Below the pieces are notes generated by a model. The model did no database searches. It saw only the letters and a list, made by a program, of their open reading frames with translations, and was not told the origin of the DNA. A program made the translations under genes and the position numbers. Shown piece by piece: positions 43,330-60,371 of a DNA stretch of 64,000 bases (positions within the stretch are counted from its first letter, which is position 1; every line of letters starts with the position of its first letter). Location of the stretch: positions 1 to 64,000 of IMG/VR virus record IMGVR_UViG_3300044678_002717; one strand, given 5' to 3'. This stretch comes from a virus.

Positions 43330-43413
43330 GTCGGGATGTTGGAATTGGTAGACAAGATGGACTTAAAATCCATTGGCAGCAATGCCGTGAGGGTTCGATT
43401 CCCTCTCCTGATA
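43330..43413 (+). tRNA. tRNA-Leu(UAA)
   Basis: Cloverleaf with ATGGA-CTTAAAA-TCCAT anticodon arm, long variable arm and GGTTCGATTCC T-arm; TATATTTG box upstream; CCA not encoded. Confidence 0.92.
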
Positions 43414-43446
43414 CATAACTCATTGATTATCAATGATTTAAGATAT

Positions 43447-43544
43447 GGCCTTGTAAGTAAATGGATATACTGATTGCCTTCTCATTCCATTCTGAGGAAT
43501 GGAGAGAGAAGCAATTCTTCTAGGTTCGATTCCTAGCGAGGCTA
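43447..43544 (+). tRNA. tRNA-Arg(UCU) with a 26-nt insertion in the anticodon loop
   Basis: GGCCTTG/CGAGGCT acceptor stem, GGA D-loop (A20), ATTGC/GCAAT anticodon stem, CTAGG-TTCGATT-CCTAG T-arm; removing 43483-43508 restores loop CTTCTAA. Confidence 0.8.
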
Positions 43545-49752: not shown

Positions 49753-49877
49753 AACGAAAAATTTATAAAAAAAATTTTTAAGGTGGCATTGTTTTTCTAA
49801 ATAAAAAAGTTACACAAGAATTTTTTACAAAATTTTTTTTAAATTGGAAACTAAAAATTGTAGCCGATACATCTTTG

Positions 49878-49952
49878 TAGCCCCCACACCTATAGGGGGG
49901 TCGGGAGGGGGGTGGCTATAGGGGGATACAGGGGGAGGGGGTATACCCCCCC
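49878..49952. other. G-tract/C-tract element at the border of the early region
   Basis: Six G runs and the palindrome GGGGGTATACCCCC within otherwise AT-rich DNA. Confidence 0.75.
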
Positions 49953-50021
49953 TCAAAGATAAGTAATAGTTTTGAGACTACCAAATTTATTTTAAAATAA
50001 ACTTACATAAATCTTACATAC

Positions 50022-50446: not shown

Positions 50447-50653
50447 AGTGCGAGGGGGTAAAAGTGCTGTCACCGTGACAACAATACAAAGGTAGTAAAA
50501 TAAATTGAATTTGCAAGTGGTAAAGCAAAATTTATTTAAATTATTTTTTCCTTTCATAATCGCTATATAACGAATGCAAACCTTAAATGGTATCAAAGTA
50601 TCAGTTTAATATTTGCTTTGATTATACGCAATGTTTTATAAGTGAAAGAATAC

Positions 50654-50999: not shown

Positions 51000-51230
51000 T
51001 TAATTTAAACTATTTTCAAATTCGATTTCCGCACATTGAAAATCATCATCCGATATATATTCAACTATTTTTCCGTCACGCATATAGTATTCCTTATTAG
51101 GTTTAGAAATTATAGTTTGTGTAGGTGCTTTGAACCAATCCTGATTTAATAACCAATCCTGATAAGATTTAGGTGTTGATAAAAAATCCTGACCTTTATA
51201 TTTTCCGAATGCTAATTTGAAATTATTCAT
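51000..51230 (-). CDS. ExoX C-terminal / DUF3820-like small protein
   Basis: LAFGKYKG...PKSYQDWL; start reassigned downstream of the promoter. Confidence 0.6.
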   Translation of the reverse strand: MNNFKLAFGKYKGQDFLSTPKSYQDWLLNQDWFKAPTQTIISKPNKEYYMRDGKIVEYISDDDFQCAEIEFENSLN

Positions 51231-51337
51231 GTTTTTTTGTGTTAGTGTTTCTTCCTGATGACAATACAAAGGTAGTAAAATAATTTGAATTTGCAAGTGG
51301 TAAGCGAAAATAAATTAAATTTTTTTTCTTTTTTTTT

Positions 51338-51403
51338 AAAAGACAAGCTACCCCCGATTAACCTTCCCTTCTTTTCGGGCTTCTACCATAGTGTTTCAAC
51401 GGC
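51338..51403 (-). ncRNA. Unassigned structured small RNA, copy A
   Basis: Promoter box CACCTTTG, then GCCGTTGAAACACTATGGTAGAAGCCCGAAAAGAAGGGAAGGTTAATCGGGGGTAGCTTGTCTTTT. Confidence 0.65.
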
Positions 51404-51494
51404 ATAACAAAGGTGGCAAAAAGAAATGAGAAATGCAAATTTATTTTAAAAAAAAAGGTAGCCATTTCTGACTACCTTTGAAAGGCTTTTTGGT

Positions 51495-51968
51495 TTACCC
51501 TACCTTAATGATATTGCTTTCTTTCGGGCAAATTACCAAGGTGCTTTTACCCATTTTTTCAGCATCAGAAGCGGTAAGGTAGCTTTTAAAGGTTTCCTTA
51601 CTGATTTCCACACCATCGGCAAAGTATTGAACTTTGAGGTGGCAATTTTCAGTCGGGTAAAGCCGAATGTACCTATTGCCGTTGTGGGTAATTGTGTAGG
51701 GAAAGTGTTCCCATACACCCCAAGGTAAAGAACCAACTTCGCCCCTTGTACCATCGGCAATGCCTTCAAGTACAGGTTTTAGGTTTGCATAGTCAATACC
51801 TGCCCTAAACACACCTTCTGTGCGCTTAGTAAGTTTGACTTCTTTGAAAGCCGCTTTTGGCTTTGCTTCGGAAACAAAGGTAGCGTTAATAAACTGACCT
51901 TTGCAATTAAAGAAGCGTTCTGCCACTCCCGACAGACCGCTTGGCACTTGGAGTGTTTCGTTTTCCAT
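51495..51968 (-). CDS. Early hypothetical protein, probably leaderless
   Basis: 157 aa; CACCTTTG 4 nt before ATG; terminator downstream. Confidence 0.6.
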   Translation of the reverse strand: MENETLQVPSGLSGVAERFFNCKGQFINATFVSEAKPKAAFKEVKLTKRTEGVFRAGIDYANLKPVLEGIADGTRGEVGSLPWGVWEHFPYTITHNGNRYIRLYPTENCHLKVQYFADGVEISKETFKSYLTASDAEKMGKSTLVICPKESNIIKVG

Positions 51969-52050
51969 AAGACAAAGGTGAGAAAAAGTAACGAGAAAAA
52001 AAAGTCTTTTTTTGCAAAAAACTTACATTAAATCATGTAAGGTATTTTAA

Positions 52051-52118
52051 AAAAAAAAGGGCAAGCTACCCCCGATTAACCTTCCCTTGTTTCGGGCTTC
52101 TGCCACCTCGATGATGAC
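52051..52118 (-). ncRNA. Unassigned structured small RNA, copy B
   Basis: TACCTTTG box, then GTCATCATCGAGGTGGCAGAAGCCCGAAACAAGGGAAGGTTAATCGGGGGTAGCTTGCCC and a T run. Confidence 0.7.
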
Positions 52119-52212
52119 AATACAAAGGTATGCATTTCCAATGACATTTCCAAATTTAATTTAAAAAAAAGGACTGATATAAATCAGCCCCTCAAATTTG
52201 GTTTTCTCAGGA

Positions 52213-52419
52213 TTATCTTGTAAAGATAAATCCGTTGTGGATTGGATGCCAAGCACCTGTTTTCCGCACTAAGGTTTTTACACCTTGGCAAGTAATAAAG
52301 CATTCAGTTAATTGGTTGTTTTGGATATACTTTACAACCTTTGCTTGGGTTTCAGTCATTGACTTTGCCTGAAGTGTGAACCTTTTGCCGTTATCGAATT
52401 GAAGTTTGTAAGTGAACAT
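52213..52419 (-). CDS. Early hypothetical protein
   Basis: 68-aa cassette. Confidence 0.55.
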   Translation of the reverse strand: MFTYKLQFDNGKRFTLQAKSMTETQAKVVKYIQNNQLTECFITCQGVKTLVRKTGAWHPIHNGFIFTR

Positions 52420-52536
52420 ATCTTGTTGTTTTTAATTGATATGCGAAGGTATGTGTTTTCAATGACATTTCCAAATTTAATTTAAAAAAAAGGGTAGCCA
52501 TTTCTGACTACCTTGCTGATTGCTTTGCTTATCAGA

Positions 52537-52914
52537 TTAAATGAAATCTGATTTCTCTTCCCATTTCTTTTGGGCAAAGGCATTGCCTTCGATATCATCA
52601 TTGGCAACCACCAAACCTGTAACTTTGGTTCTTCCTTCGCCAAATTTGGCTTCCCAAAGGTATGCATTGGCTTCCACAATCCTTTCGTTTGAGAAAGCCA
52701 CACCGCATTTGTAAATGCCATCTGACTCAGGTGGCATACCATACCACTTGAATTTATCCCAACCACCAAGGGTTGATGATTCGCTATCTAATGTGCCGTG
52801 CAAATACACCCAAGGTGTATAAGACAAAACAACAAGGGTATTCTTACCAAAGGTAGCCATTGGTTCGCCTGACTCCATTAGAGTAGGGAAGATTAATTTA
52901 GGGGAGTTTGACAT
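52537..52914 (-). CDS. Early hypothetical protein with a hairpin/C-rich leader
   Basis: 125-aa cassette. Confidence 0.55.
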   Translation of the reverse strand: MSNSPKLIFPTLMESGEPMATFGKNTLVVLSYTPWVYLHGTLDSESSTLGGWDKFKWYGMPPESDGIYKCGVAFSNERIVEANAYLWEAKFGEGRTKVTGLVVANDDIEGNAFAQKKWEEKSDFI

Positions 52915-53055
52915 ATGCGAAGGGGGTTAAGAGTGCCATCACCGTGATGACAATACAAAGGTAGTAAAATAAATTGAATTTGCAAGTGGTAAGTGAAAAT
53001 AAATTAAAAAAAATGGAAGTATTTCTACTTCCATTCTGATTGGGTTTGCTTTAGG

Positions 53056-53349
53056 TTATTCTATTTCAGAAACATCGTAACCCATTTCTCTTAGCTTTTC
53101 GATAATGCAGCGAGGCAAGGCAAATACACCATCGTAATCAACGATTGTCATTCCTTTAAACCATATGCCACCTTCAGCATACCATTCATCACCTCCGGTC
53201 TCTACATCGTATATTTCAAACCAACCATAATCATCGGAATTGATTCCAATGGTAACCTGAAGTTCGATATCGTTTTGCTCTTTAATTGTGCCAAACGAGT
53301 TTTCAAGTGAAAGACTTTCGGTGGCGATAAATTCAATTTCCATTTTCAT
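53056..53349 (-). CDS. Acidic early hypothetical protein
   Basis: Start moved downstream of the promoter. Confidence 0.55.
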   Translation of the reverse strand: MKMEIEFIATESLSLENSFGTIKEQNDIELQVTIGINSDDYGWFEIYDVETGGDEWYAEGGIWFKGMTIVDYDGVFALPRCIIEKLREMGYDVSEIE

Positions 53350-53427
53350 AAGTGTTATTGTTTTTAATTGATATGCGAAGGTATGTATTTTGAATGAGAC
53401 TACCAAATTTATTTTAAAATAATTTCC

Positions 53428-53622
53428 TTATACCATTTGCTCTAACATATACCGAATGCTTTCAAGTTTATCTCTTTCTATATCAATTTCTCCACAAGAG
53501 GTTTGTGCAATCCAAGTATTGCTTCGATATTGTTTCATTATATTTACTTCTTTCCCATTTACTATGGTCGTATAATCACCACCACCTTGCTTGTATGTTT
53601 TTTTGAACTTTAGAGATGCCAT
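53428..53622 (-). CDS. Early hypothetical protein (MASLKF...)
   Basis: Start moved downstream of the promoter. Confidence 0.55.
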   Translation of the reverse strand: MASLKFKKTYKQGGGDYTTIVNGKEVNIMKQYRSNTWIAQTSCGEIDIERDKLESIRYMLEQMV

Positions 53623-53686
53623 TGTTTTTGTTGTTTTTAATTGATATGCGAAGGTATGTATTTTGAATGAGACTACCAAATTTATT

Positions 53687-53836
53687 TTAAAATCTTTTTG
53701 GGCCACTACACCTTGCTGAATGGGTTTGATTCCAACCACGCTTATGTGGATTCTTTTGAGCATGGTAACCGATTCTATTATCCACCGCACAAGATGCAAG
53801 GCAAACAAGGATTAAAAGCGCAATTATGTTTTTCAT
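53687..53836 (-). CDS. 49-aa putative lipoprotein
   Basis: MKNIIALLILVCLAS-C lipobox; translated by hand. Confidence 0.55.
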   Translation of the reverse strand: MKNIIALLILVCLASCAVDNRIGYHAQKNPHKRGWNQTHSARCSGPKRF

Positions 53837-53955
53837 TTTACCGCAATTAAGATGATTTTACAAATGATTATAAATATTCCGAATGAAATACCCACAAAAG
53901 TGAATGCATCATAAAACATATTCATTCTACGCTGTTGTTTAAAGAAGTCTTCCAT
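53833..53955 (-). CDS. 40-aa membrane peptide
   Basis: MEDFFKQQRR...FGIFIIICKIILIAVK; ATGA overlap with the lipoprotein gene. Confidence 0.45.
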   Translation of the reverse strand: MEDFFKQQRRMNMFYDAFTFVGISFGIFIIICKIILIAVK

Positions 53956-54007
53956 TGTTTTAGTATTTAATTTGATGTGTGAAAGATTTGATATTTCCAA
54001 ATTTATT

Positions 54008-54115
54008 TTACCAAGGTTCTATTTGACCAATATATTCAACAAATTTAATAGCTGTGTAGCACAACATACCAACAATGGCAATGACTACAAGGGTTTCGAT
54101 TAATGTCTTTTTCAT
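54008..54115 (-). CDS. 35-aa pilin-N-terminus-like membrane peptide
   Basis: MKKTLIETLVVIAIVGMLCYTAIKFVEYIGQIEPW; own promoter. Confidence 0.5.
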   Translation of the reverse strand: MKKTLIETLVVIAIVGMLCYTAIKFVEYIGQIEPW

Positions 54116-54245
54116 ATTCTTAATGTTTTAATCTGATACAAATATAAGTGAAAGATTTGAGACTACCAAATTTATTTTACTTCAAACATAAAATTTATTT
54201 TAAAATAAATTTGGAAATATCATTTCCTTTGCATACATTTGTATT

Positions 54246-54317
54246 GTCTTACAGCGAATGGGGCAGAAGCCGGAGAAAACGGAAGGTTCATCGCAGGTAA
54301 CTTGTCCTCTTTTTTTT
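54246..54317 (+). ncRNA. Unassigned structured small RNA, copy C (inverted)
   Basis: TACATTTG box, then GTCTTACAGCGAATGGGGCAGAAGCCGGAGAAAACGGAAGGTTCATCGCAGGTAACTTGTCCTC and a T run. Confidence 0.7.
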
Positions 54318-54341
54318 ATATATGGGCAAAAAAAAATGCCC

Positions 54342-54485
54342 TTAGAAGGGCAATTCAATCTTTTCTTCGATTGTCAGAGGGCTTTCTTCGATTTCCTCTG
54401 TGGCTTCCCTGATTAGGTTTCTTGCCATTTCCATAATCATTGCCTCATTTTCAAGTTCTTCGATGCTGATGCGATAGTCTGTCAT
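54342..54485 (-). CDS. 47-aa acidic peptide ending in IELPF
   Basis: Translated by hand; own promoter; terminator GCCCT-TCTA-AGGGC overlaps the stop. Confidence 0.55.
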   Translation of the reverse strand: MTDYRISIEELENEAMIMEMARNLIREATEEIEESPLTIEEKIELPF

Positions 54486-54545
54486 AATTGTTTTGTTTTT
54501 GATGATACAAATGTAATACGGATTTCTGATATTTCCAAATTTAAT

Positions 54546-54779
54546 TTAAAATTTTGTTTCAGCATAAAACTGCTCATAAGCGTGTGTATATTTTTTATCA
54601 TCAAAATAAACATCACCATAACCCAATCTAACACCAAAGGTAATTGCCTTTGCGGTTTGAGCATTCTCATAAGGTTTGATAAATTGTTTGTAAAAATCTA
54701 AATCAGATTGAGTAATTTGCCGACCATTATCTAATGATTTCTGAATTTCGCTGATGATAAGTTCTACTGCTGTTGTCAT
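54546..54779 (-). CDS. Early hypothetical protein (MTTAVEL...)
   Basis: Cassette; start moved downstream of the promoter. Confidence 0.55.
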   Translation of the reverse strand: MTTAVELIISEIQKSLDNGRQITQSDLDFYKQFIKPYENAQTAKAITFGVRLGYGDVYFDDKKYTHAYEQFYAETKF

Positions 54780-54835
54780 AATTGTTTTTGTTTTTGATGA
54801 TACAAATGTAATACGGATTTCTGATATTTCCAAAT

Positions 54836-54946
54836 TTATTTAAAAAAACTTTGGATAATTAGTGAAGCCACAAAGGTCAGGAACATATTCCGTAAAGCCT
54901 TCTTTTGGTCAGATGGCATATTCATTAGGTCTTGAATGTCTTGCAT
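54836..54946 (-). CDS. 36-aa peptide
   Basis: MQDIQDLMNMPS...; own promoter; stop inside the next promoter. Confidence 0.4.
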   Translation of the reverse strand: MQDIQDLMNMPSDQKKALRNMFLTFVASLIIQSFFK

Positions 54947-55063
54947 TTTGTTGTTGTTTTAATTTGATAATGTAAAAGTATGGCAAAGATTTGATATTTC
55001 CAAATTTATTTTAAAAAAAAGGACTGATATTTATCAGCCCTTCAGATTTGGATTTGTCAGGAT

Positions 55064-55936
55064 TTATGCTAACAAGGTAGCAAGTTCATTTACCAACTTG
55101 AAAGCATCATCGGTTATCTTTTGATTACCACCTAAAAGGTTTCCATAGGCATCAGTACTGAACTTTTTGTGGGTTGTGAAGTGTGTTACTCCGTTGAATG
55201 CACCGAATAAGTTCATTCCCAAATCATTGGTTTCCCTTGTAAAGGATTCCATTAGGTCTGCTTTGCGCCTTCCGGTTGATGATGGCAAGATATTCTCTTT
55301 CAGCAACTTTTCATCAATGTTGAGAAGTCGGTTTGCAAGGCCATCCAAAATGGCATGGTCAATTTCAATTTCGGATAGCTTTTTGAGTTGCAATGCTTCC
55401 CTTTCCTTTTCTTCCCTGAAGCCTTTTACAAGGTCAATAAACATTTCAATTCGGAAGTCTTGATTCTTTGTATGGCGAACCTTCAGACCTTGCATAACCC
55501 TGCCCCAAGCATTGTGGCAACGAAGTAGAATGTTTACAGAACCCACAAAGATTGGTGTTGTACCATTGTGGGAATTACCGAAAACAAGGTAGTTTTCTGA
55601 TGGCAAACCCAAATGTTTGTGTACCATATCATCTGTTGCTTTCAGATAGGCAAGTACCTTTTCACCTTCCCTGAATTCAGCAAACCCTTCCAAAGCATAA
55701 CCACTTGCTTCAGACAATTTGTAAGCATAATCTACAAATGCTGAATTCTTTGTTTCCTTGTAGGTTGCATTGGTCAGGTGCAAGGTTCTACCATTGTCAG
55801 ACCTTTTCAGGGCAACATAATCATCTTCAGGTACATATAGACCTGCCTTGTTGATTGTCATTGGTGTATGCCTTTGAACTTCCCAATTTAAAGAATCCTT
55901 AAAATCCTTTACTGCATTACTTGTGCTTTTTGCCAT
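55064..55936 (-). CDS. DUF932 family protein
   Basis: LNWEV, RSDN, NSHNG, CHN, RHT and NLFGAFNGVTHFTTH motifs. Confidence 0.8.
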   Translation of the reverse strand: MAKSTSNAVKDFKDSLNWEVQRHTPMTINKAGLYVPEDDYVALKRSDNGRTLHLTNATYKETKNSAFVDYAYKLSEASGYALEGFAEFREGEKVLAYLKATDDMVHKHLGLPSENYLVFGNSHNGTTPIFVGSVNILLRCHNAWGRVMQGLKVRHTKNQDFRIEMFIDLVKGFREEKEREALQLKKLSEIEIDHAILDGLANRLLNIDEKLLKENILPSSTGRRKADLMESFTRETNDLGMNLFGAFNGVTHFTTHKKFSTDAYGNLLGGNQKITDDAFKLVNELATLLA

Positions 55937-56008
55937 AATTGTTTTGTTTATTATTTATTGTTTGATGATACAAAGGTAAACGAAAGATTCGACAATTCCA
56001 AATTTATT

Positions 56009-56251
56009 TTAAAATAAACTAATATGAGTGGCTTGTACTTCTTTCCACAAAGAAAGGTGTAATTTACCCAATACTGATAAATTAACACAATTTGGACTTT
56101 CATCAACTTTAATAGTTTCATTATCTTTGGGTAAAGAAATGTAACCAAGGCAATCTTTTGGGTTGCTATAAAGACTTATGGAATAATCACTTTCCATAAT
56201 TGCATACCTTTCGATTACTGACTGAGGGATTTGACTTAGGATGTTTTGCAT
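56009..56251 (-). CDS. Early hypothetical protein
   Basis: 80-aa cassette. Confidence 0.5.
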   Translation of the reverse strand: MQNILSQIPQSVIERYAIMESDYSISLYSNPKDCLGYISLPKDNETIKVDESPNCVNLSVLGKLHLSLWKEVQATHISLF

Positions 56252-56295
56252 AATTGTTATTGTTTGATTACAGAGGCAAATGTATAATGAATATT

Positions 56296-56490
56296 TTAAT
56301 TTTCCAAATTTATTTTAAAATCTTTGCAAAAAAGTTCAAACTCTTTATTTGGGTCAATCTTTTCACCCAATCCAAAATAATGAATCAGATACTTTGCAAA
56401 GGCAATCTGAATGTTCCTTACTTCCTGATTAGGATTTACCATTGCATCTGATAGATGCGACTGAATAACCATGCTGACTTGTACTTTCAT
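56296..56490 (-). CDS. Early hypothetical protein (MKVQVS...)
   Basis: Cassette; start moved downstream of the promoter. Confidence 0.5.
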   Translation of the reverse strand: MKVQVSMVIQSHLSDAMVNPNQEVRNIQIAFAKYLIHYFGLGEKIDPNKEFELFCKDFKINLEN

Positions 56491-56573
56491 ATTTTCTTGT
56501 TGTTTGATTACAGAGGCAAATGTATAACGAATATATTTAATATGCAAATTTATTTTAAAATATTTTTATATAT

Positions 56574-56644
56574 AAAAAAAAGGACAAGTTACCCCCGATT
56601 AACCTTCCCTTCTTTTCGGGCTTCTGCCATAGTGTTTCAATGAC
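56574..56644 (-). ncRNA. Unassigned structured small RNA, copy D
   Basis: TACCTTTG box, then GTCATTGAAACACTATGGCAGAAGCCCGAAAAGAAGGGAAGGTTAATCGGGGGTAACTTGTCC and a T run. Confidence 0.7.
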
Positions 56645-56748
56645 AATACAAAGGTAAGTAAAAGAAATGATATTTCCAAATTTATTTTAAAAAAAATTCC
56701 CTCCGAAATTCAGAGGGAATTTTCAAATGAATCATATGTCCTAAACTT

Positions 56749-57012
56749 TTACATTTCCAATAGCTTTTGAATTGCTTCTTCAATTTGTTCTTCTGACTGC
56801 CAACCAAGTATTTCATCGTGTTCTGATAGCATAATAAATTCGGGATTTCCTTTATGCCAAGCAGCCATTTCAAATGAATTTCTGCCATTGCCATACAATC
56901 CTGTTCCTCCCACAATGGAAATCATTATTCCGTTTGGTAGTTCGTGCAATGCCTGTACTGCATCGGGCATCTTATTTGCGTGGGGCTTGAAAACTAAATC
57001 TTGAAATGTCAT
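56749..57012 (-). CDS. Early hypothetical protein
   Basis: 87 aa; terminator TCCCTCTG-AATTT-CGGAGGGA downstream. Confidence 0.6.
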   Translation of the reverse strand: MTFQDLVFKPHANKMPDAVQALHELPNGIMISIVGGTGLYGNGRNSFEMAAWHKGNPEFIMLSEHDEILGWQSEEQIEEAIQKLLEM

Positions 57013-57075
57013 ATGTTTTTGTTTTTTGATTACGATGTAAATTACGGAATAATAATCGAGAATTGCAAATTTATT

Positions 57076-57399
57076 TTAAAATTTATTGAATCCTTTTTCT
57101 TCGTACTTTCCTGCCAATGTTTTAGCAACCAAACCACTAACAGCAAAACCAAGCGGAATCCAAATCATCGTTTTTTGTGTTTTACCTAAATGGTAACCTA
57201 ATATTGCACTTGCAAAAGCACCTGCAACAAGACCATCACCAATGCCATTTAAGACCTTTGCTTTGGTAAGGTTTAATTTGATTTCCCTTTGTACTGAATC
57301 CTTTCTTTGCTTACAAGGGTTCATACAAGTGTTGTAATTGGTTTGAGCCATTGCTGAACCCGAAACCATTAGTGCGAATGCTATTAGTGTTTTTTTCAT
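57076..57399 (-). CDS. Exported/membrane protein, probably leaderless
   Basis: Signal peptide MKKTLIAFALMVSGSAMA and two TM segments; TACATTTG 4 nt before ATG. Confidence 0.6.
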   Translation of the reverse strand: MKKTLIAFALMVSGSAMAQTNYNTCMNPCKQRKDSVQREIKLNLTKAKVLNGIGDGLVAGAFASAILGYHLGKTQKTMIWIPLGFAVSGLVAKTLAGKYEEKGFNKF

Positions 57400-57475
57400 A
57401 TGACAAATGTATGTAAAATTAAATTAAATTCCAAATTTATTTTAAAAAAAAAGGGAAGATTTCTCTTCCCAAATT

Positions 57476-57655
57476 TTATTTTGTTTTCTCTGTTAAATTT
57501 AATAATTCTAATACTTCTTCAATTTGCATTTGCAAATACTCCTTTGTAATGATGGAGTTTTTAGGAAAGTTTTCCTTTTCAATAAGGTCAATGTAATGAC
57601 CTAATGCTTGACCAATCACATACTTGTGAAACCCTGTTAATGCTACTTTTTTCAT
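57476..57655 (-). CDS. 59-aa hypothetical protein (MKKVALTGFHK...)
   Basis: Translated by hand; own promoter and terminator. Confidence 0.5.
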   Translation of the reverse strand: MKKVALTGFHKYVIGQALGHYIDLIEKENFPKNSIITKEYLQMQIEEVLELLNLTEKTK

Positions 57656-57765
57656 TTTGTTTTTGTTTTAATTTGATGTTACAAATGTAATACGAAGATT
57701 TTAATTTTCCAAATTTATTTTAAAATAAATGGGCTGATTTTTCTCAGCCCAATTTAAGTTATTGA

Positions 57766-58263
57766 TTATGAGTGCATATCAACAAACACAAACCAAATTT
57801 TGTCGCCATCGGTTGTTGAATGTGTTAGGTCTGTAAAACCGCATTCATCATATTTGTAAGAAAAGAAACAATCATCTTTCATACAATCAAAAGGATTTTC
57901 TCTAAATGGATGTGCTTCGGATAAATGCTCCGCATACTTTGACAATGACCATAGTTCGTGTGAATCCCATTCAGTTAAATTAAAGTTGCCTTCTGCAAAT
58001 TTATCTTCTGCAATTTTACCATACCAACTTGATTTAATCCATCCATTCACACATTCATTGATTTGCTCAATGGTAGCAATATCGGTATCTTTGGGTTGGT
58101 ATCTTCCATCCCCTGCATTGTAAACTTCATTATCTTCCGATACTGCACCACATATAGTTCGCCAATTATTTTCATTACCGAAATCCATTATTAGGATTTC
58201 AACTTCTTTACAAGCCTGTTCTCCCGAATCAGCTTTTACTTTTACTAAATGTAAGTTATGCAT
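57766..58263 (-). CDS. Early hypothetical protein
   Basis: 165 aa ending FVFVDMHS. Confidence 0.6.
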   Translation of the reverse strand: MHNLHLVKVKADSGEQACKEVEILIMDFGNENNWRTICGAVSEDNEVYNAGDGRYQPKDTDIATIEQINECVNGWIKSSWYGKIAEDKFAEGNFNLTEWDSHELWSLSKYAEHLSEAHPFRENPFDCMKDDCFFSYKYDECGFTDLTHSTTDGDKIWFVFVDMHS

Positions 58264-58303
58264 ATTGTTTTTTGATTACGATACAAAGATAAGTAAAAGA
58301 AAC

Positions 58304-58459
58304 TTAATATCCAAATTTATTTTGATTTCTTTTTTGCTCATTGCGGTCATACTTCTTTTTATCCTTACCTACCTTTGTGGTAAAACGAGAATCCAAACCC
58401 GAATCCCTTTTAAGGATTTCCCTTTTGATTTTGCCGTAATTGATAGTGTTACTTGTCAT
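58304..58459 (-). CDS. 51-aa basic peptide, weakly ArfA-like
   Basis: ...SRFTTKVGKDKKKYDRNEQK...; own promoter. Confidence 0.45.
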   Translation of the reverse strand: MTSNTINYGKIKREILKRDSGLDSRFTTKVGKDKKKYDRNEQKRNQNKFGY

Positions 58460-58530
58460 TTTGCTTTTGTTTTTGATGCTACAAAGGTAAGTAGGATAAA
58501 TGAGAAAAACAAATTTATTTTAAAATAATT

Positions 58531-58725
58531 TTAGTCTTCAATCTTCTTTTCAAGTATGTAAAAGAAGTAACAGACAATTCCCATTGGTATTCCCATTACA
58601 AACCAAATGATTGCGAACATATCCCAATTAGGTTTTGCACCTGATTCTTCTGCAAACTTTACCATTGTGGGAAGTAAGAGCCACAAAGCCATTATTGTGA
58701 ATGATAAATAAGTGAACTTTTTCAT
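58531..58725 (-). CDS. Two-TM small membrane protein
   Basis: MKKFTYLSF...; cassette. Confidence 0.5.
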   Translation of the reverse strand: MKKFTYLSFTIMALWLLLPTMVKFAEESGAKPNWDMFAIIWFVMGIPMGIVCYFFYILEKKIED

Positions 58726-58785
58726 AATTGTTTTTTGATTTTGATTACGATACAAATGTAAGTGAAAGTTTTGACAATTCCAAAT

Positions 58786-58962
58786 TTATTTTAATTTATT
58801 TTTCTCTTTTAATTCCTCCATTAAAAGAATCAAAAATAAAATAAATGAGAATCCAAATATAAAACTCATTACAATAATATTTCCAATATCCTGAAGGCAA
58901 AAAAGAAAAAAGGATGAGGAAAGACAAGCCATACCAATAAGAATCAATGCGATGTTTTTCAT
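58786..58962 (-). CDS. 58-aa two-TM membrane peptide
   Basis: MKNIALILIGMAC...; translated by hand. Confidence 0.45.
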   Translation of the reverse strand: MKNIALILIGMACLSSSFFLFCLQDIGNIIVMSFIFGFSFILFLILLMEELKEKNKLK

Positions 58963-59066
58963 AATGTTACAAAGGTAAGTAAAAGATTTTAATTTTCCAA
59001 ATTTATTTTAAAAAAAAGGCAACCATTTCTGATTGCCTTATTCTTAAAGTCTACTTTTATTTTAGA

Positions 59067-59468
59067 TTAAAGTTCGTTTGGGGCTGCTTCTTTAACAATC
59101 ACACGAAGAACCGAAGCATTGAGGCGAGAGCCTTCTCTGTTCACCGCATCAATCACGATTGAGAATGCGATGTTTGAGAACCTTTTCTTTCCCGAAAGGA
59201 TTGCATTGGCAATAGCACCATTAACCAACTTATCCTTACGAAGCGGAAAATCGGAGTGAGGGAACGAAATTTGCGCTTTGCCATCATTGGCTTGTGCGTA
59301 ATCAATCGCAGCCTTCATCTTGTCGAACACGGCTTGTACTGCCGGACTTAGGGTTTTTCCACCCCTTGCTGAACGGATGTTTTCATCAAAAGATTGAACT
59401 TCGATGTTTGCAACTTGTGCGGTAACCTCTCCCGATTCCTGCACATTAGACTTAGATTTGTTTGACAT
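59067..59468 (-). CDS. Early hypothetical protein (MSNKSK...)
   Basis: Cassette with promoter and terminator. Confidence 0.6.
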   Translation of the reverse strand: MSNKSKSNVQESGEVTAQVANIEVQSFDENIRSARGGKTLSPAVQAVFDKMKAAIDYAQANDGKAQISFPHSDFPLRKDKLVNGAIANAILSGKKRFSNIAFSIVIDAVNREGSRLNASVLRVIVKEAAPNEL

Positions 59469-59543
59469 AATCTTTATTGTTTTTGTTTGATGATGCAAAG
59501 GTATGTAATTGAAATGACTTTTGCAAATTTTTTTTCAACTTTT

Positions 59544-59816
59544 TTAATTCATGCAAATTTGATTCATTTTGGTTGCCCAAAACTTGGCAACAAATTCCCA
59601 AACCATATCCGCATAATAAGGAGTACCATTGTCGCAAAGGAAATAGTAAATATCATTTTCAGTAAACAGATTGAAATTATCTGTAATGTATTCTCTGATT
59701 ACTTCTTTGGTATTCCAATCCATAAAGGCAATGGATAAAATGTTTTGAGCATTGTCATAATTGACTTCGATGATTCCACCGATTACATACTCTCCAATTC
59801 TGAATGTCTTTTTCAT
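59544..59816 (-). CDS. Early hypothetical protein (MKKTFRIGEY...)
   Basis: Cassette. Confidence 0.55.
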   Translation of the reverse strand: MKKTFRIGEYVIGGIIEVNYDNAQNILSIAFMDWNTKEVIREYITDNFNLFTENDIYYFLCDNGTPYYADMVWEFVAKFWATKMNQICMN

Positions 59817-59945
59817 ATCATTTGTTTTTGATAAGACAAAGGTATGTAATTGAAATGACTTTTCCAAATTACAATGAAAAATAAATGAAATATTTTTTTT
59901 TAAAATAAATTTGGAAATATCGAATCTTTCACTTACTTTTGTATT

Positions 59946-60019
59946 GCATTACAGATGATGGTGTAGAAGCCCGATGCAAGGGAAGGTTCATCGCCTGTAA
60001 CTTGTCCTTACTTTTTTTT
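59946..60019 (+). ncRNA. Unassigned structured small RNA, copy E (inverted)
   Basis: TACTTTTG box, then GCATTACAGATGATGGTGTAGAAGCCCGATGCAAGGGAAGGTTCATCGCCTGTAACTTGTCCTTAC and a T run. Confidence 0.7.
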
Positions 60020-60086
60020 AGTGCAATGCAAAAAAAATTCCCGACACTTTTTTGTCGGGAATCCTAAATTTTGTCGGGAATGATTT

Positions 60087-60371
60087 TTAAATCATCCTCA
60101 AGAAATCCGATGGATTCCAATGACCATTCTCTTTTTTGAAAGTCTCAAGCATCTTCTTGCAGGTTTCGTGGCTATCCTGATTGCGAAGGTCATGGCGATA
60201 GTCATCAGAACCCACAAACTCAATCCATTTCAAACATAGCTTTGTGAAGGACTGCTGCAAAGTGCGATGGTCTTTGCCCATTTCGGTAATAAAACCCTGA
60301 TGGTCAGAAGAAAATGAATTTACGAAGTTTGACATTTCGTTTGCGAGGTGTTTTGCTTTATTGTTTTCCAT
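60087..60371 (-). CDS. Early hypothetical protein
   Basis: HRTLQQSF motif; cassette. Confidence 0.55.
   Translation of the reverse strand: MENNKAKHLANEMSNFVNSFSSDHQGFITEMGKDHRTLQQSFTKLCLKWIEFVGSDDYRHDLRNQDSHETCKKMLETFKKENGHWNPSDFLRMI

What the first reader, a model, noticed from the sequence alone, without database searches (positions are those of the whole stretch)
51338..60019. Five independently promoted copies of an unassigned ~70-nt RNA with a variable 5' end and conserved core
Seen: copies at 51338-51403(-), 52051-52118(-), 54246-54317(+), 56574-56644(-) and 59946-60019(+). Each starts with G exactly 4 nt after a -7 box, has a 16-18 nt variable 5' segment, then the core YAGAAG-CCS-N7/8-SGG-AAGGTTMATCG-N3-GTARCTTGYC and a U tract. 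The hairpin covaries (CCC/GGG in four copies, CCG/CGG in copy C) while its loop changes in sequence and length. GTT pairs with AAC or AGC. In copy E the 5' segment can pair with the variable 3' bases (TTACAG/CTGTAA and GATG/CATC), and copy C does likewise (TTAC/GTAA, GCGA/TCGC). The copies occupy the same promoter cassettes as early protein genes, and C and E are the only inverted cassettes I found. Inference: a highly expressed early phage RNA family, for example a decoy or antitoxin mimic against a host defence, an antisense regulator, or a guide-plus-scaffold RNA. I cannot match it to a family I know.
Basis: partly seen in the sequence, partly recalled or inferred. Interest (0 to 1): 0.88.

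Follow-up and report, generated by a model that had tools for sequence, protein, structure and literature searches.

The report
Multicopy small RNA of lake phages
The five repeats are real, separately promoted genes for a short folded RNA that occurs only in large lake phages of Bacteroidota and matches no catalogued RNA family, and its job, probably binding some protein early in infection, is still unknown.

Summary
There are five stand-alone units of about 65-70 nt, each starting at a G 4 nt after a Bacteroidota-type -7 box.

They belong to a real RNA family. A covariance model finds 106 copies in 51 of 85 sources searched, mostly lake metagenome contigs.

- **Structure:** two hairpins, P1 and P2, are kept by compensatory changes. 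P2 is fully flipped (CCC/GGG to GGG/CCC) in a second subtype. The 3' part fits a small pseudoknot/terminator, supported only by transition-only variation.
- **Not a known family:** there is no Rfam match, no conserved reading frame, and no copy in prokaryote genomes searched.
- **The phage:** a T4-like huge phage of freshwater Bacteroidota. Its more complete relatives encode ribosomal protein bS21.
the guide-plus-scaffold reading and the 5'-3' pairing are not supported as family features. Tests against CRISPR-repeat mimics, Cas9 single-guide mimics, rRNA complementarity and cis-leader roles were negative or at chance level.
- **One lead:** the commonest P1 class carries AUUGAAAC, the end of CRISPR repeats in 23 of 101 sampled Bacteroidota genomes.

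Function remains inferred. My best guess is an abundant early protein-binding decoy RNA. This scan had noted the same kind of RNA before on other phage DNA.

The parts
51333..51403 (-). sRNA copy A (type I; P1 class a variant GCCGUUGAAACACUAUGGU; P2 CCC/GGG with an 8-nt loop)
   Evidence: CM R1 73.4 bits; sequence read
51408..51439 (-). promoter of copy A (-33 TTTG, -7 box CACCTTTG, start G 4 nt downstream)
   Evidence: read; it lacks the TA of the consensus, so my regex missed it
52051..52118 (-). sRNA copy B (type I; P1 GUCAUC-AUCGA-GGUGGC; 7-nt P2 loop; 3' hairpin GGGGGUA/UGCCCUU plus a U tract)
   Evidence: CM 78 bits; terminator-like site
52123..52154 (-). promoter of copy B (TTTG-N-TACCTTTG)
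54210..54241 (+). promoter of copy C (TTTG-N-TACATTTG)
54246..54315 (+). sRNA copy C (type I; P1 class b GUCUUACAGCGAAUGGGGC; P2 CCG/CGG), inverted relative to the early genes
   Evidence: CM 79.1 bits
56574..56644 (-). sRNA copy D (type I; P1 class a GUCAUUGAAACACUAUGGC; 8-nt P2 loop)
   Evidence: CM 84.8 bits
56649..56680 (-). promoter of copy D (TTTG-N-TACCTTTG)
59910..59941 (+). promoter of copy E (TTTG-N-TACTTTTG)
59946..60015 (+). sRNA copy E (type I; P1 class c GCAUUACAGAUGAUGGUGU), inverted relative to the early genes
   Evidence: CM 77.1 bits

Best explanation
SHOWN:
- These are five stand-alone genes of one phage-specific structured small RNA family.
- Each unit has a 5' hairpin P1 that begins at the transcription start. 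P1 is variable and falls into discrete classes.
- P1 is followed by a constant core of about 45 nt: AG(AAG), hairpin P2 (3 bp, loop G-A-N-N-M-A-A), AAGGU(U/G)-N-AUCG-NNN-G-U-A-R-Y..G-Y-C, then a U tract.
- The core nucleotides outside the helices are nearly invariant across phages that use quite different promoters.

INFERRED:
- The RNA is made in large amounts from early promoters and acts in trans, not on a downstream gene.
- P1 mainly protects the 5' end.
- The invariant loops and junctions of the core (P2 plus a small pseudoknot) form a binding surface for a protein.
- Extra gene copies raise the dose. The RNA would therefore be a decoy or sponge, most plausibly directed against a host factor such as a defence or RNA-handling protein during takeover.
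- The partner is unknown.
For: - **Real family:** 5 of 5 window copies and 106 model matches in 51 of 85 sources. 97.4% of helix cells are paired against 80.1% in shuffles, and all 3 P2 pairs show double changes, including CG to GC flips.
- **Invariant unpaired core:** AGAAG, GGAAGGTT and ATCG are unchanged in 11 of 11 seed copies and are kept in both subtypes.
- **Phage-only:** 14 pattern hits in one genome each of 185,579 species all look like chance coding matches. 8 weak coding-like hits turned up in 151 Bacteroidota genomes. The core pattern gave 9 hits against 11 for the reversed control in 401 genomes.
- **Trans rather than cis:** 30 of 79 type I units and 15 of 16 type II units point against the downstream coding strand. 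In the window every following gene has its own promoter.
- **Dose:** 1 to 6 copies per source, each with a full early promoter.
- **Different promoters, same core:** host-type TTTG/TAnnTTTG here and a different conserved box in G001.
- **Precedent:** decoy RNAs are dose-dependent and sit directly behind their own promoter in the one well-studied case (Racr, PMC10651486, passages read).
Against: - No expression data exist. No listed run is RNA.
- No partner protein was found. The commonest neighbouring ORF family lies near the RNA in only 14 of 51 loci, and neighbours gave only DUF932 and DUF6011 in Pfam.
- P1 loop class a is conserved across distant phages, which a mere protective hairpin does not explain.
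- The 3' hairpins are weak. Only 1 of 5 passes a terminator scan, so discrete ends are not assured.
- Single-sequence folding energies are not better than shuffles (z from +1.4 to -1.2).
Confidence: 0.4

Rival explanations
1. Trans-acting base-pairing regulators. The constant core is a scaffold (perhaps for an RNA chaperone). The variable loops (P1 loop, P2 loop, the NNN of the 3' loop) are seeds that pair with different host or phage mRNAs.
For: P1 falls into discrete classes shared between contigs, and several classes coexist in one phage. The strongest predicted duplexes of the sRNAs are with those leaders and with a C-rich transcript at 49860-49953.
Against: Duplex energies with the leaders and the C-rich island are not better than with shuffled targets. 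In the best case 6 of 200 shuffles reach the observed value, and most cases show 24-160 of 200. The 10-mer complementarity in the window is at about the number I expect by chance by my own arithmetic. P1 classes show no above-chance complementarity to a Bacteroidota rRNA operon; 53 of 54 P1 variants are within the shuffle range and the best is 6 of 200. The host genome is unknown, so host targets could not be tested.
Confidence: 0.2
2. Pre-cut crRNA decoy against class 1 CRISPR systems. The commonest P1 class starts GUC-AUUGAAAC, the sequence that ends many Bacteroidota CRISPR repeats. By recalled knowledge this forms the 8-nt 5' handle of their crRNAs. The RNA would seed non-productive effector complexes.
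For: 36 of 83 distinct type I sequences carry UUGAAAC within the first 16 nt, including the only copies in the two most complete phages. 23 of 101 sampled Bacteroidota genomes have arrays whose repeats end in ATTGAAAC, against 0 with the reversed control. Rfam's only CRISPR-type hint was to this stretch (CRISPR-DR16, 16.6 bits, E 0.12, far below its gathering score of 35). The unit length of about 61-65 nt from the handle is near one CRISPR period of 66-72 nt.
Against: The handle's first bases lie in the covarying P1 stem, and its first nucleotide changes together with its partner. 47 of 83 type I and 15 of 15 type II sequences lack it, including all four copies in G001 and four in L061. A second P1 class (UUACAG) has no matching repeat family; matches are at control level in 101 genomes. 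Three extra 5' nucleotides precede the handle. The universally conserved part is the core, not P1.
Confidence: 0.08
3. Cis-acting leader: a riboswitch-like attenuator or a put/nut-like antitermination RNA that acts on the polymerase transcribing it and controls downstream genes.
For: The element sits directly behind a promoter, has two or three stem-loops and ends in a U tract. In the two single-copy phages co-oriented ORFs follow within 50-150 nt. The 3' part can form either of two overlapping helices.
Against: 30 of 79 type I and 15 of 16 type II units face the opposite coding strand. In the window C and E face the ends of genes, and A, B and D are followed by complete promoters. No consistent downstream gene family was found. 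There is no Rfam riboswitch hit.
Confidence: 0.08
4. Small-molecule aptamer made in bulk, that is, an RNA sponge for a metabolite or an immune signalling nucleotide.
For: The core is compact: a hairpin plus a possible H-type pseudoknot, with invariant loop and junction nucleotides. By recalled knowledge this architecture is typical of the smallest riboswitch aptamers. It is stand-alone, promoter-driven and multicopy.
Against: There is no similarity to any Rfam aptamer. The pseudoknot rests on one-sided changes only. No such RNA sponge is known to me, and no ligand can be inferred from the context.
Confidence: 0.05
5. Miniature viral single-guide RNA or tracrRNA mimic that sequesters Cas9.
For: The order of parts resembles the published viral sgRNAs: a 5' variable segment, a hairpin, AAGG plus a short stem-loop ending in CG, then a U tract (preprint 10.64898/2026.06.01.729453, sections read). 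Bacteroidota tracrRNA tails start AAGGATTATTCCG or AAGGCTATAAGCCG. Cas9 is present in 11 of 61 sampled Bacteroidota genomes.
Against: The 9 Cas9-linked arrays examined have repeats starting GTTGTG or GTTGT (one reads GGCTGTG in its printed orientation), of 36-49 nt, with matching anti-repeats. The sRNA has only a 3-bp stem of unrelated sequence there. The 5' segment folds on itself. The core motif is at control level in 401 genomes.
Confidence: 0.04
6. Primer or R-loop transcripts of replication origins, as at some T4 origins (recalled knowledge).
For: The phage has a T4-like module. The transcripts would be short, purine-rich and promoter-driven, in both orientations.
Against: RNA helices covary, which an R-loop primer does not require. 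Copy number ranges from 1 to 6. No test of origin position was possible on a fragment estimated at 22% complete.
Confidence: 0.03

Closest known systems
RNA anti-CRISPRs (Racrs, solitary repeat units; PMC10651486, abstract and passages read)
   Same: [quoted passage not shown] It acts by dose as a competitive decoy for host proteins and is not linked to cas genes.
   Different: Racrs are copies of host CRISPR repeats. This core occurs in no prokaryote genome searched. Only the 8-nt repeat end AUUGAAAC is shared, and only by one P1 class.
Viral single-guide RNAs / rAcrIIA1 (bioRxiv 10.64898/2026.06.01.729453, sections 5 and 9 read; 10.64898/2026.06.03.729762, abstract read)
   Same: Compact phage RNA with a short 5' segment, a capped stem, a tail beginning with an AAGG-type motif and a terminator. 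It acts by sequestering an effector.
   Different: There is no repeat:anti-repeat duplex matching any Bacteroidota Cas9 array examined. The 5' segment is a conserved hairpin. The unit is about 65 nt rather than 89 nt. It is dispersed in 1-6 copies among early genes rather than lying in an anti-CRISPR island.
HK022 put and lambda nut RNAs
   Same: A promoter-proximal RNA of about 65-70 nt with stem-loops in an early phage region.
   Different: Put and nut act in cis on downstream operons. Here many units face away from any gene and end in a U tract.
ToxI-type antitoxin RNAs and phage pseudo-ToxI (recalled knowledge)
   Same: A small pseudoknotted RNA that neutralises a protein by binding, whose dose matters and which phages can carry.
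   Different: ToxI units are tandem 34-40 nt repeats next to a toxin gene. These units are dispersed, each has its own promoter, and no toxin gene is linked.
Paralogous multicopy sRNAs of Bacteroides (FopS/GibS; named in earlier notes; paper not read by me)
   Same: Several paralogous small RNA genes with a shared module in a Bacteroidota setting that lacks Hfq.
   Different: Those are host-encoded. No homologue of this RNA was found in the host-phylum genomes searched.

Membership tests
Any Rfam 15 family | A match to a curated covariance model at or above its gathering score | tested here: not met
   The whole window gave only two tRNA hits. At E<=10 over 51000-60300 nothing came near gathering at the five units. 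For a 96-nt search of copy D the best hits were 18.2, 16.6 and 11.1 bits against gathering scores of 48, 35 and 70.
tRNA / tmRNA | Cloverleaf recognised by ARAGORN or by Rfam RF00005 | tested here: not met
   ARAGORN found only tRNA-Leu at 43330-43414. Rfam found tRNAs only at 43330-43544.
Racr / solitary CRISPR repeat unit | The sequence and structure of the RNA copy a CRISPR repeat of a host system | tested here: not met
   The core pattern gave 14 chance-like hits and no array in one genome each of 185,579 species. The covariance model gave 8 weak coding-like hits in 151 Bacteroidota genomes. The shorter core pattern gave 9 hits against 11 for the control in 401 genomes.
Racr / solitary CRISPR repeat unit | A stand-alone unit directly behind its own promoter, not linked to cas genes | tested here: met
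   Promoters end 5 nt upstream of each unit. No cas genes were seen among the neighbours.
Class 1 crRNA (decoy version) | An 8-nt 5' handle identical to the end of the host repeat | tested here: inconclusive
   AUUGAAAC or UUGAAAC is present in 36 of 83 distinct type I sequences and in 0 of 15 type II. Repeats ending in ATTGAAAC occur in 23 of 101 Bacteroidota genomes. However, the motif lies 3 nt inside the transcript and partly within a covarying stem.
Viral sgRNA / rAcrIIA1 | A repeat:anti-repeat lower stem homologous to the host's Cas9 crRNA:tracrRNA | tested here: not met
   Nine Bacteroidota Cas9-linked arrays have repeats of 36-49 nt. Eight read GTTGT(G/T) at the repeat start in the orientation I inferred, and one (L162) reads GGCTGTG as printed. 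Anti-repeats end in CACAAT or CACAAC. The sRNA has AGAAG-CCC/GGG at that place.
Viral sgRNA / rAcrIIA1 | A tracrRNA-like tail (nexus and terminator hairpins) | tested here: inconclusive
   The tails start AAGGATTATTCCG or AAGGCTATAAGCCG, while the sRNA has AAGGTTAATCG. This is a resemblance of about 11 nt only, and the sequences downstream are unrelated.
Type III toxin-antitoxin antitoxin RNA (ToxI-like) | Tandem direct repeats next to an endoribonuclease toxin gene | tested here: not met
   The units are 0.6-3.3 kb apart, each with its own promoter. Neighbour families gave no toxin domain.
Cis-acting leader (riboswitch, put/nut) | Consistently upstream of, and co-oriented with, the regulated genes | tested here: not met
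   Type I units: 49 in the same orientation, 30 opposite, 10 too close to a contig end. Type II units: 1 same, 15 opposite, 1 too short.
Small protein gene | A conserved reading frame | tested here: not met
   7- and 8-nt P2 loops shift the frame between copies. An ATG is present only in some P1 classes. Type II rewrites the P2 stem (sequences).

The most novel reading that the evidence does not exclude
The RNA is a ready-made crRNA look-alike. It is transcribed with the class 1 5' handle AUUGAAAC almost at its 5' end and is one CRISPR period long. Its structured, invariant body jams the assembly of type I or type III effector complexes of Bacteroidota. That would be an RNA anti-CRISPR that needs neither Cas6 processing nor a copied repeat. 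Its multicopy derivatives with other P1 hairpins would have been retargeted to other host proteins.
Probability: 0.08. Interest if true: 0.85.

Novelty: new variant of a known kind. Interest (0 to 1): 0.7.

Why it matters
Phage small RNAs are a barely explored layer of host takeover, and Bacteroidota lack the classical RNA chaperones. This is a well-defined, structurally supported RNA family. It is abundant in huge freshwater phages that also carry ribosomal protein bS21, and it is amplified to several promoter-driven copies per genome.

If it is a decoy, its partner would be a host factor important enough to be titrated from the first minutes of infection, possibly a defence system. If it is a regulator, it would be a phage-borne sRNA system with a modular design.

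Either way it is a concrete and cheap target for pull-down, probing and expression experiments in Flavobacterium-type hosts. It is also a candidate new Rfam family.

Tried and rejected
- **Rfam:** at gathering and at E<=10 nothing was usable. The PreQ1, STnc and snoRNA hits lie on other strands or are far below gathering.
- **Similarity to known phages:** megablast and blastn of the region and of copy D against 50,697 phage records gave no match. A 64-nt query has little power there.
- **Cultured relative:** Flavobacterium phage immuto and two huge uncultured phages (LR756511, LR756508) were searched whole with the model. The only hit was 16.4 bits inside a coding region. Earlier notes say a lab-grown phage carries such an RNA, and I could not reproduce that with my model.
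- **rRNA mimicry or complementarity:** tested against a Chitinophaga rRNA operon used as a stand-in host. Only short matches at chance level were found.
- **mRNA-leader and C-rich island pairing:** not better than shuffles. The 10-mer complement search was at about the number I expect by chance by my own arithmetic.
- **5'-3' long-range pairing:** not a family feature.
- **Partner gene by neighbourhood:** none in more than 14 of 51 loci. Pfam gave only DUF932 and DUF6011.
- **Second handle class (UUACAG):** no repeat family found.
- **P1-like 12-mer in the window:** not enriched, with 14 matches against 14.2 expected.
- **RNA evidence:** no RNA holder was listed among 24 runs, all lake or freshwater metagenome DNA.
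- **Literature:** four searches found no description of this RNA. Chen et al. 2022 (PMC9723584; outline, section 9 and term search read) describes the phage group but has no mention of non-coding RNA (0 occurrences). Its supplements were not seen and might list hosts or CRISPR types.
- **From recall only, not tested with tools:** resemblances to Cas13b repeats, k-turn, T-loop and loop E motifs, and the Shine-Dalgarno complement.

Full report
**Observation.**
The five units are in the sequence as described. Reading the stretches and a pattern search give five matches against none in 100 shuffles (AGAAGCCS-N6-9-SGGAAGGTTMATCG). The whole 73.6-kb virus record that holds the window has exactly these five.

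Each unit begins with G 4 nt after a -7 box. That box is TAnnTTTG in four copies and CACCTTTG in copy A. A TTTG lies about 20 nt upstream. This is the same architecture as about 35 protein-gene cassettes between 49.9 and 64 kb. Copies C and E lie on the + strand, against all those genes.

No frame is conserved. P2 loops of 7 or 8 nt shift the frame between copies, an ATG exists only in some 5' segments, and a second subtype rewrites the stem.

**Family and distribution.**
The strict pattern found four further copies in one 170-kb IMG/VR contig. A looser pattern found single copies in a 178-kb and a 465-kb contig, plus one chance hit in a GC-rich contig.

In one genome for each of 185,579 prokaryote species the looser pattern gave 14 hits. 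All sit in GC-rich coding-like context, without promoter or U tract.

In JGI metagenome contigs the looser pattern hit 84 stretches, of which 80 were listed.

I built a covariance model from 11 copies. It found 5, 4, 1 and 1 copies in the four virus records, plus one 17-bit match in the largest. Over the 80 metagenome loci, the window and four viral loci it found 106 matches at E<=0.01. That search covered 85 sources and 498,231 bases. 51 sources hold a match and 34 do not, with 98 distinct sequences and 1 to 6 copies per source.

The DNA of the window region is held by 24 listed runs, all lake or freshwater metagenomes and none RNA.

**Two subtypes.**
Type I is the window's kind, with 89 matches and 83 distinct sequences. 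It reads AGAAG-CCN..NGG-AAGGUU-M-AUCG.

Type II has 17 matches and 15 distinct sequences. It reads AG(A/G)U-GGR..YCC-AAGGUG-W-AUCG.

In 13 places a type II unit lies tail to tail, 5-6 nt from a type I unit, so that the two cores form a long inverted repeat. The window has only type I.

**Structure.**
- **P1 (columns 1-5 with 16-20):** paired in 98.1% of cells, and 4 of 5 pairs show double changes.
- **P2 (3 bp):** paired in 100% of cells, and all three pairs show double changes. The counts are CG 61 / AU 21 / GC 16 at the inner pair, with CG to GC flips at the other two.
- **Controls:** the whole structure beats 500 of 500 shuffles and all slid controls.
- **Other pairs:** a mutual-information scan found no further long-range pairs.
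- **The 3' part, two overlapping short helices:** G45-U46-U47 pairs with A58-R59-Y60 (93.5% paired), and N55-G56-U57 pairs with G63-Y64-C65 (90.1% paired). Together they would form an H-type pseudoknot.
- **Support for the 3' helices:** it is only that positions 59, 60 and 64 vary by transitions that keep pairing with invariant U or G. I treat the pseudoknot as a candidate.
- **GGG-type copies such as B:** the second helix extends to a 7-bp hairpin before the U tract.
- **Single-sequence folding energies:** unremarkable.
present in those copies, but matched pairs are no better than permuted ones across the family.

**P1 classes.**
P1 is not random. It falls into classes shared between contigs. 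Examples are GUCAUUGAAACACUAUGRC, GUCUUACAGCGAAUGGGGC, GCAUUACAGAUGAUGGUGY, GUCAUCAGGGAGAUGGC, GUCAUUAAGRUAGUGRC, and GCAAAUGGAAAUCAUUUGC in type II.

The first class is the only one in the two single-copy, most complete phages. It occurs in 36 of 83 distinct type I sequences.

**The phage.**
The window encodes a T4-type major capsid protein, portal and large terminase, and a family B DNA polymerase.

CheckV rates the record 22% complete. The relatives are rated 52, 78 and 98% complete at 170, 178 and 465 kb. The two more complete ones encode ribosomal protein bS21.

This fits the bS21-encoding huge phages of freshwater Bacteroidetes described by Chen et al. 2022 (PMC9723584). That paper does not mention non-coding RNAs.

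The 170-kb relative drives both its genes and its sRNA copies from a different conserved promoter box. The RNA core is therefore conserved independently of the promoter type.

**Known families tested.**
- **Rfam and tRNA:** no Rfam family and no tRNA-like call.
- **CRISPR-repeat mimic (Racr):** the core is absent from prokaryote genomes by pattern, by model in 151 Bacteroidota genomes (8 weak hits that read as coding), and by a shorter core pattern in 401 genomes (9 hits against 11 for the reversed control).
- **Viral sgRNA or tracrRNA mimic:** Cas9 is in 11 of 61 sampled Bacteroidota genomes. Nine of the ten loci I fetched had arrays. Eight repeats read GTTGT(G/T) at the start in the orientation I inferred, and one reads GGCTGTG as printed. 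Three tracrRNA tails begin AAGGATTATTCCG or AAGGCTATAAGCCG. The sRNA shares only an AAGG..CG resemblance of about 11 nt and has no repeat:anti-repeat duplex.
- **Cis leader:** 30 of 79 type I and 15 of 16 type II units point against the downstream coding strand.
- **Base pairing with phage mRNAs:** The motif is conserved in five other loci. I also examined a C-rich transcript at 49860-49953. Their 8-nt complementarity to GGGGGUAA is real, but duplex energies do not beat shuffled targets.
- **rRNA mimicry or guiding:** at chance level on a stand-in rRNA operon.
- **Neighbouring genes:** no constant partner.

**A lead.**
The weak Rfam hit CRISPR-DR16 (16.6 bits, E 0.12) pointed to UCAUUGAAAC at the start of class-a P1.

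Arrays whose repeats end in ATTGAAAC occur in 23 of 101 sampled Bacteroidota genomes, in several repeat families, against 0 for the reversed control. By recalled knowledge that octamer becomes the 5' handle of class 1 crRNAs.

A promoter-driven RNA that starts 3 nt before the handle and is about one CRISPR period long could be a decoy crRNA.

Several observations speak against it:
- The handle lies partly in a covarying stem.
- More than half of the family lacks it, including all copies seen in the lineage with the other promoter type.
- The UUACAG class has no matching repeat family.

I keep it as the boldest reading at about 8%.

**Mechanism.**
What is shown is a phage-restricted, structurally constrained, promoter-driven, multicopy small RNA. 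Its most conserved nucleotides are unpaired.

What I infer is a trans-acting, dose-dependent protein-binding RNA made early in infection, with P1 as a 5' stabiliser. I put my confidence in that reading at 0.4.

The main rival is a modular base-pairing regulator at 0.2. Cis regulation, an aptamer sponge, a Cas9 decoy and an origin primer are each below 0.1.

**Novelty.**
Four literature searches found no description of this RNA.

The closest published concepts are Racrs (PMC10651486) and the 2026 preprints on viral sgRNAs. This RNA is not a member of either.

This scan has noted the same kind of multicopy small RNA in other Bacteroidota phage genomes, with function left open. One of those notes appears to concern the lineage of the 170-kb relative. 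I count these notes as leads, not as evidence.

**Limits.**
- There are no expression data.
- The host is unknown.
- The record is a fragment.
- The alignment used for pair counts was fitted to my model.
- The pseudoknot and all functional statements are inference.

Noticed in passing
window 50447-50482(-) and 52914-52952(-); also L067, L092 (two), L114, L117: There is a conserved 5' leader on two early genes. It has a start-proximal hairpin (GUCAUCACGGUGAUGGC or GUUGUCACGGUGACAGC) followed by ACUYUUA(A)CCCC(C)U(U)CGCAYUAUG, ending in the start codon. The motif recurs in five related loci. Its function is unknown.
   Followed up: partly
window 49860-49998(-): A G-run/C-run island lies directly behind the last early promoter (TATCTTTG ending at 49954) and has no ORF. 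It has five or more C5-6 runs flanked by UA, and the palindrome GGGGGTATACCCCC. It sits at the switch from the early array to the other gene block.
   Followed up: partly
window 43447-43544(+): A second tRNA-like gene is found by Rfam (46.3 bits) but not by ARAGORN. It is 98 nt long, so it carries an insert.
   Followed up: no
L048, L067, L071, L079, L081, L086, L092, L103, L110, L111, L116, L047: In relatives a second sRNA subtype, with the P2 stem flipped and AAGGUG in place of AAGGUU, lies tail to tail 5-6 nt from a type I unit in 13 places. The two cores form a long inverted repeat that probably terminates both.
   Followed up: partly
L002 (G001, 170-kb IMG/VR contig): This relative uses a different, highly conserved promoter box (TGTAAGA..N..TTTGATATATTAAGGT) for both its small early genes and its sRNA copies.
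   Followed up: no
G002:C1:141290-141430 and G003:C1:133276-133413: The two more complete relatives encode ribosomal protein bS21 (47 and 44 bits). This places the group among the bS21 phages of freshwater Bacteroidetes.
   Followed up: partly
window 55064-55936(-) and L061:8789-9673: The L061 ORF, one of the commoner sRNA neighbours (10 of 51 loci), matches DUF932. I did not scan or align the 290-aa ORF in the window between copies C and D, so its kinship to that family is only a guess from size and position.
   Followed up: no
Bacteroidota genomes G006-G105 (sample): CRISPR content of the host phylum in the samples drawn: Cas9 is present in 11 of 61 genomes, and arrays with repeats ending in ATTGAAAC are present in 23 of 101.
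   Followed up: yes
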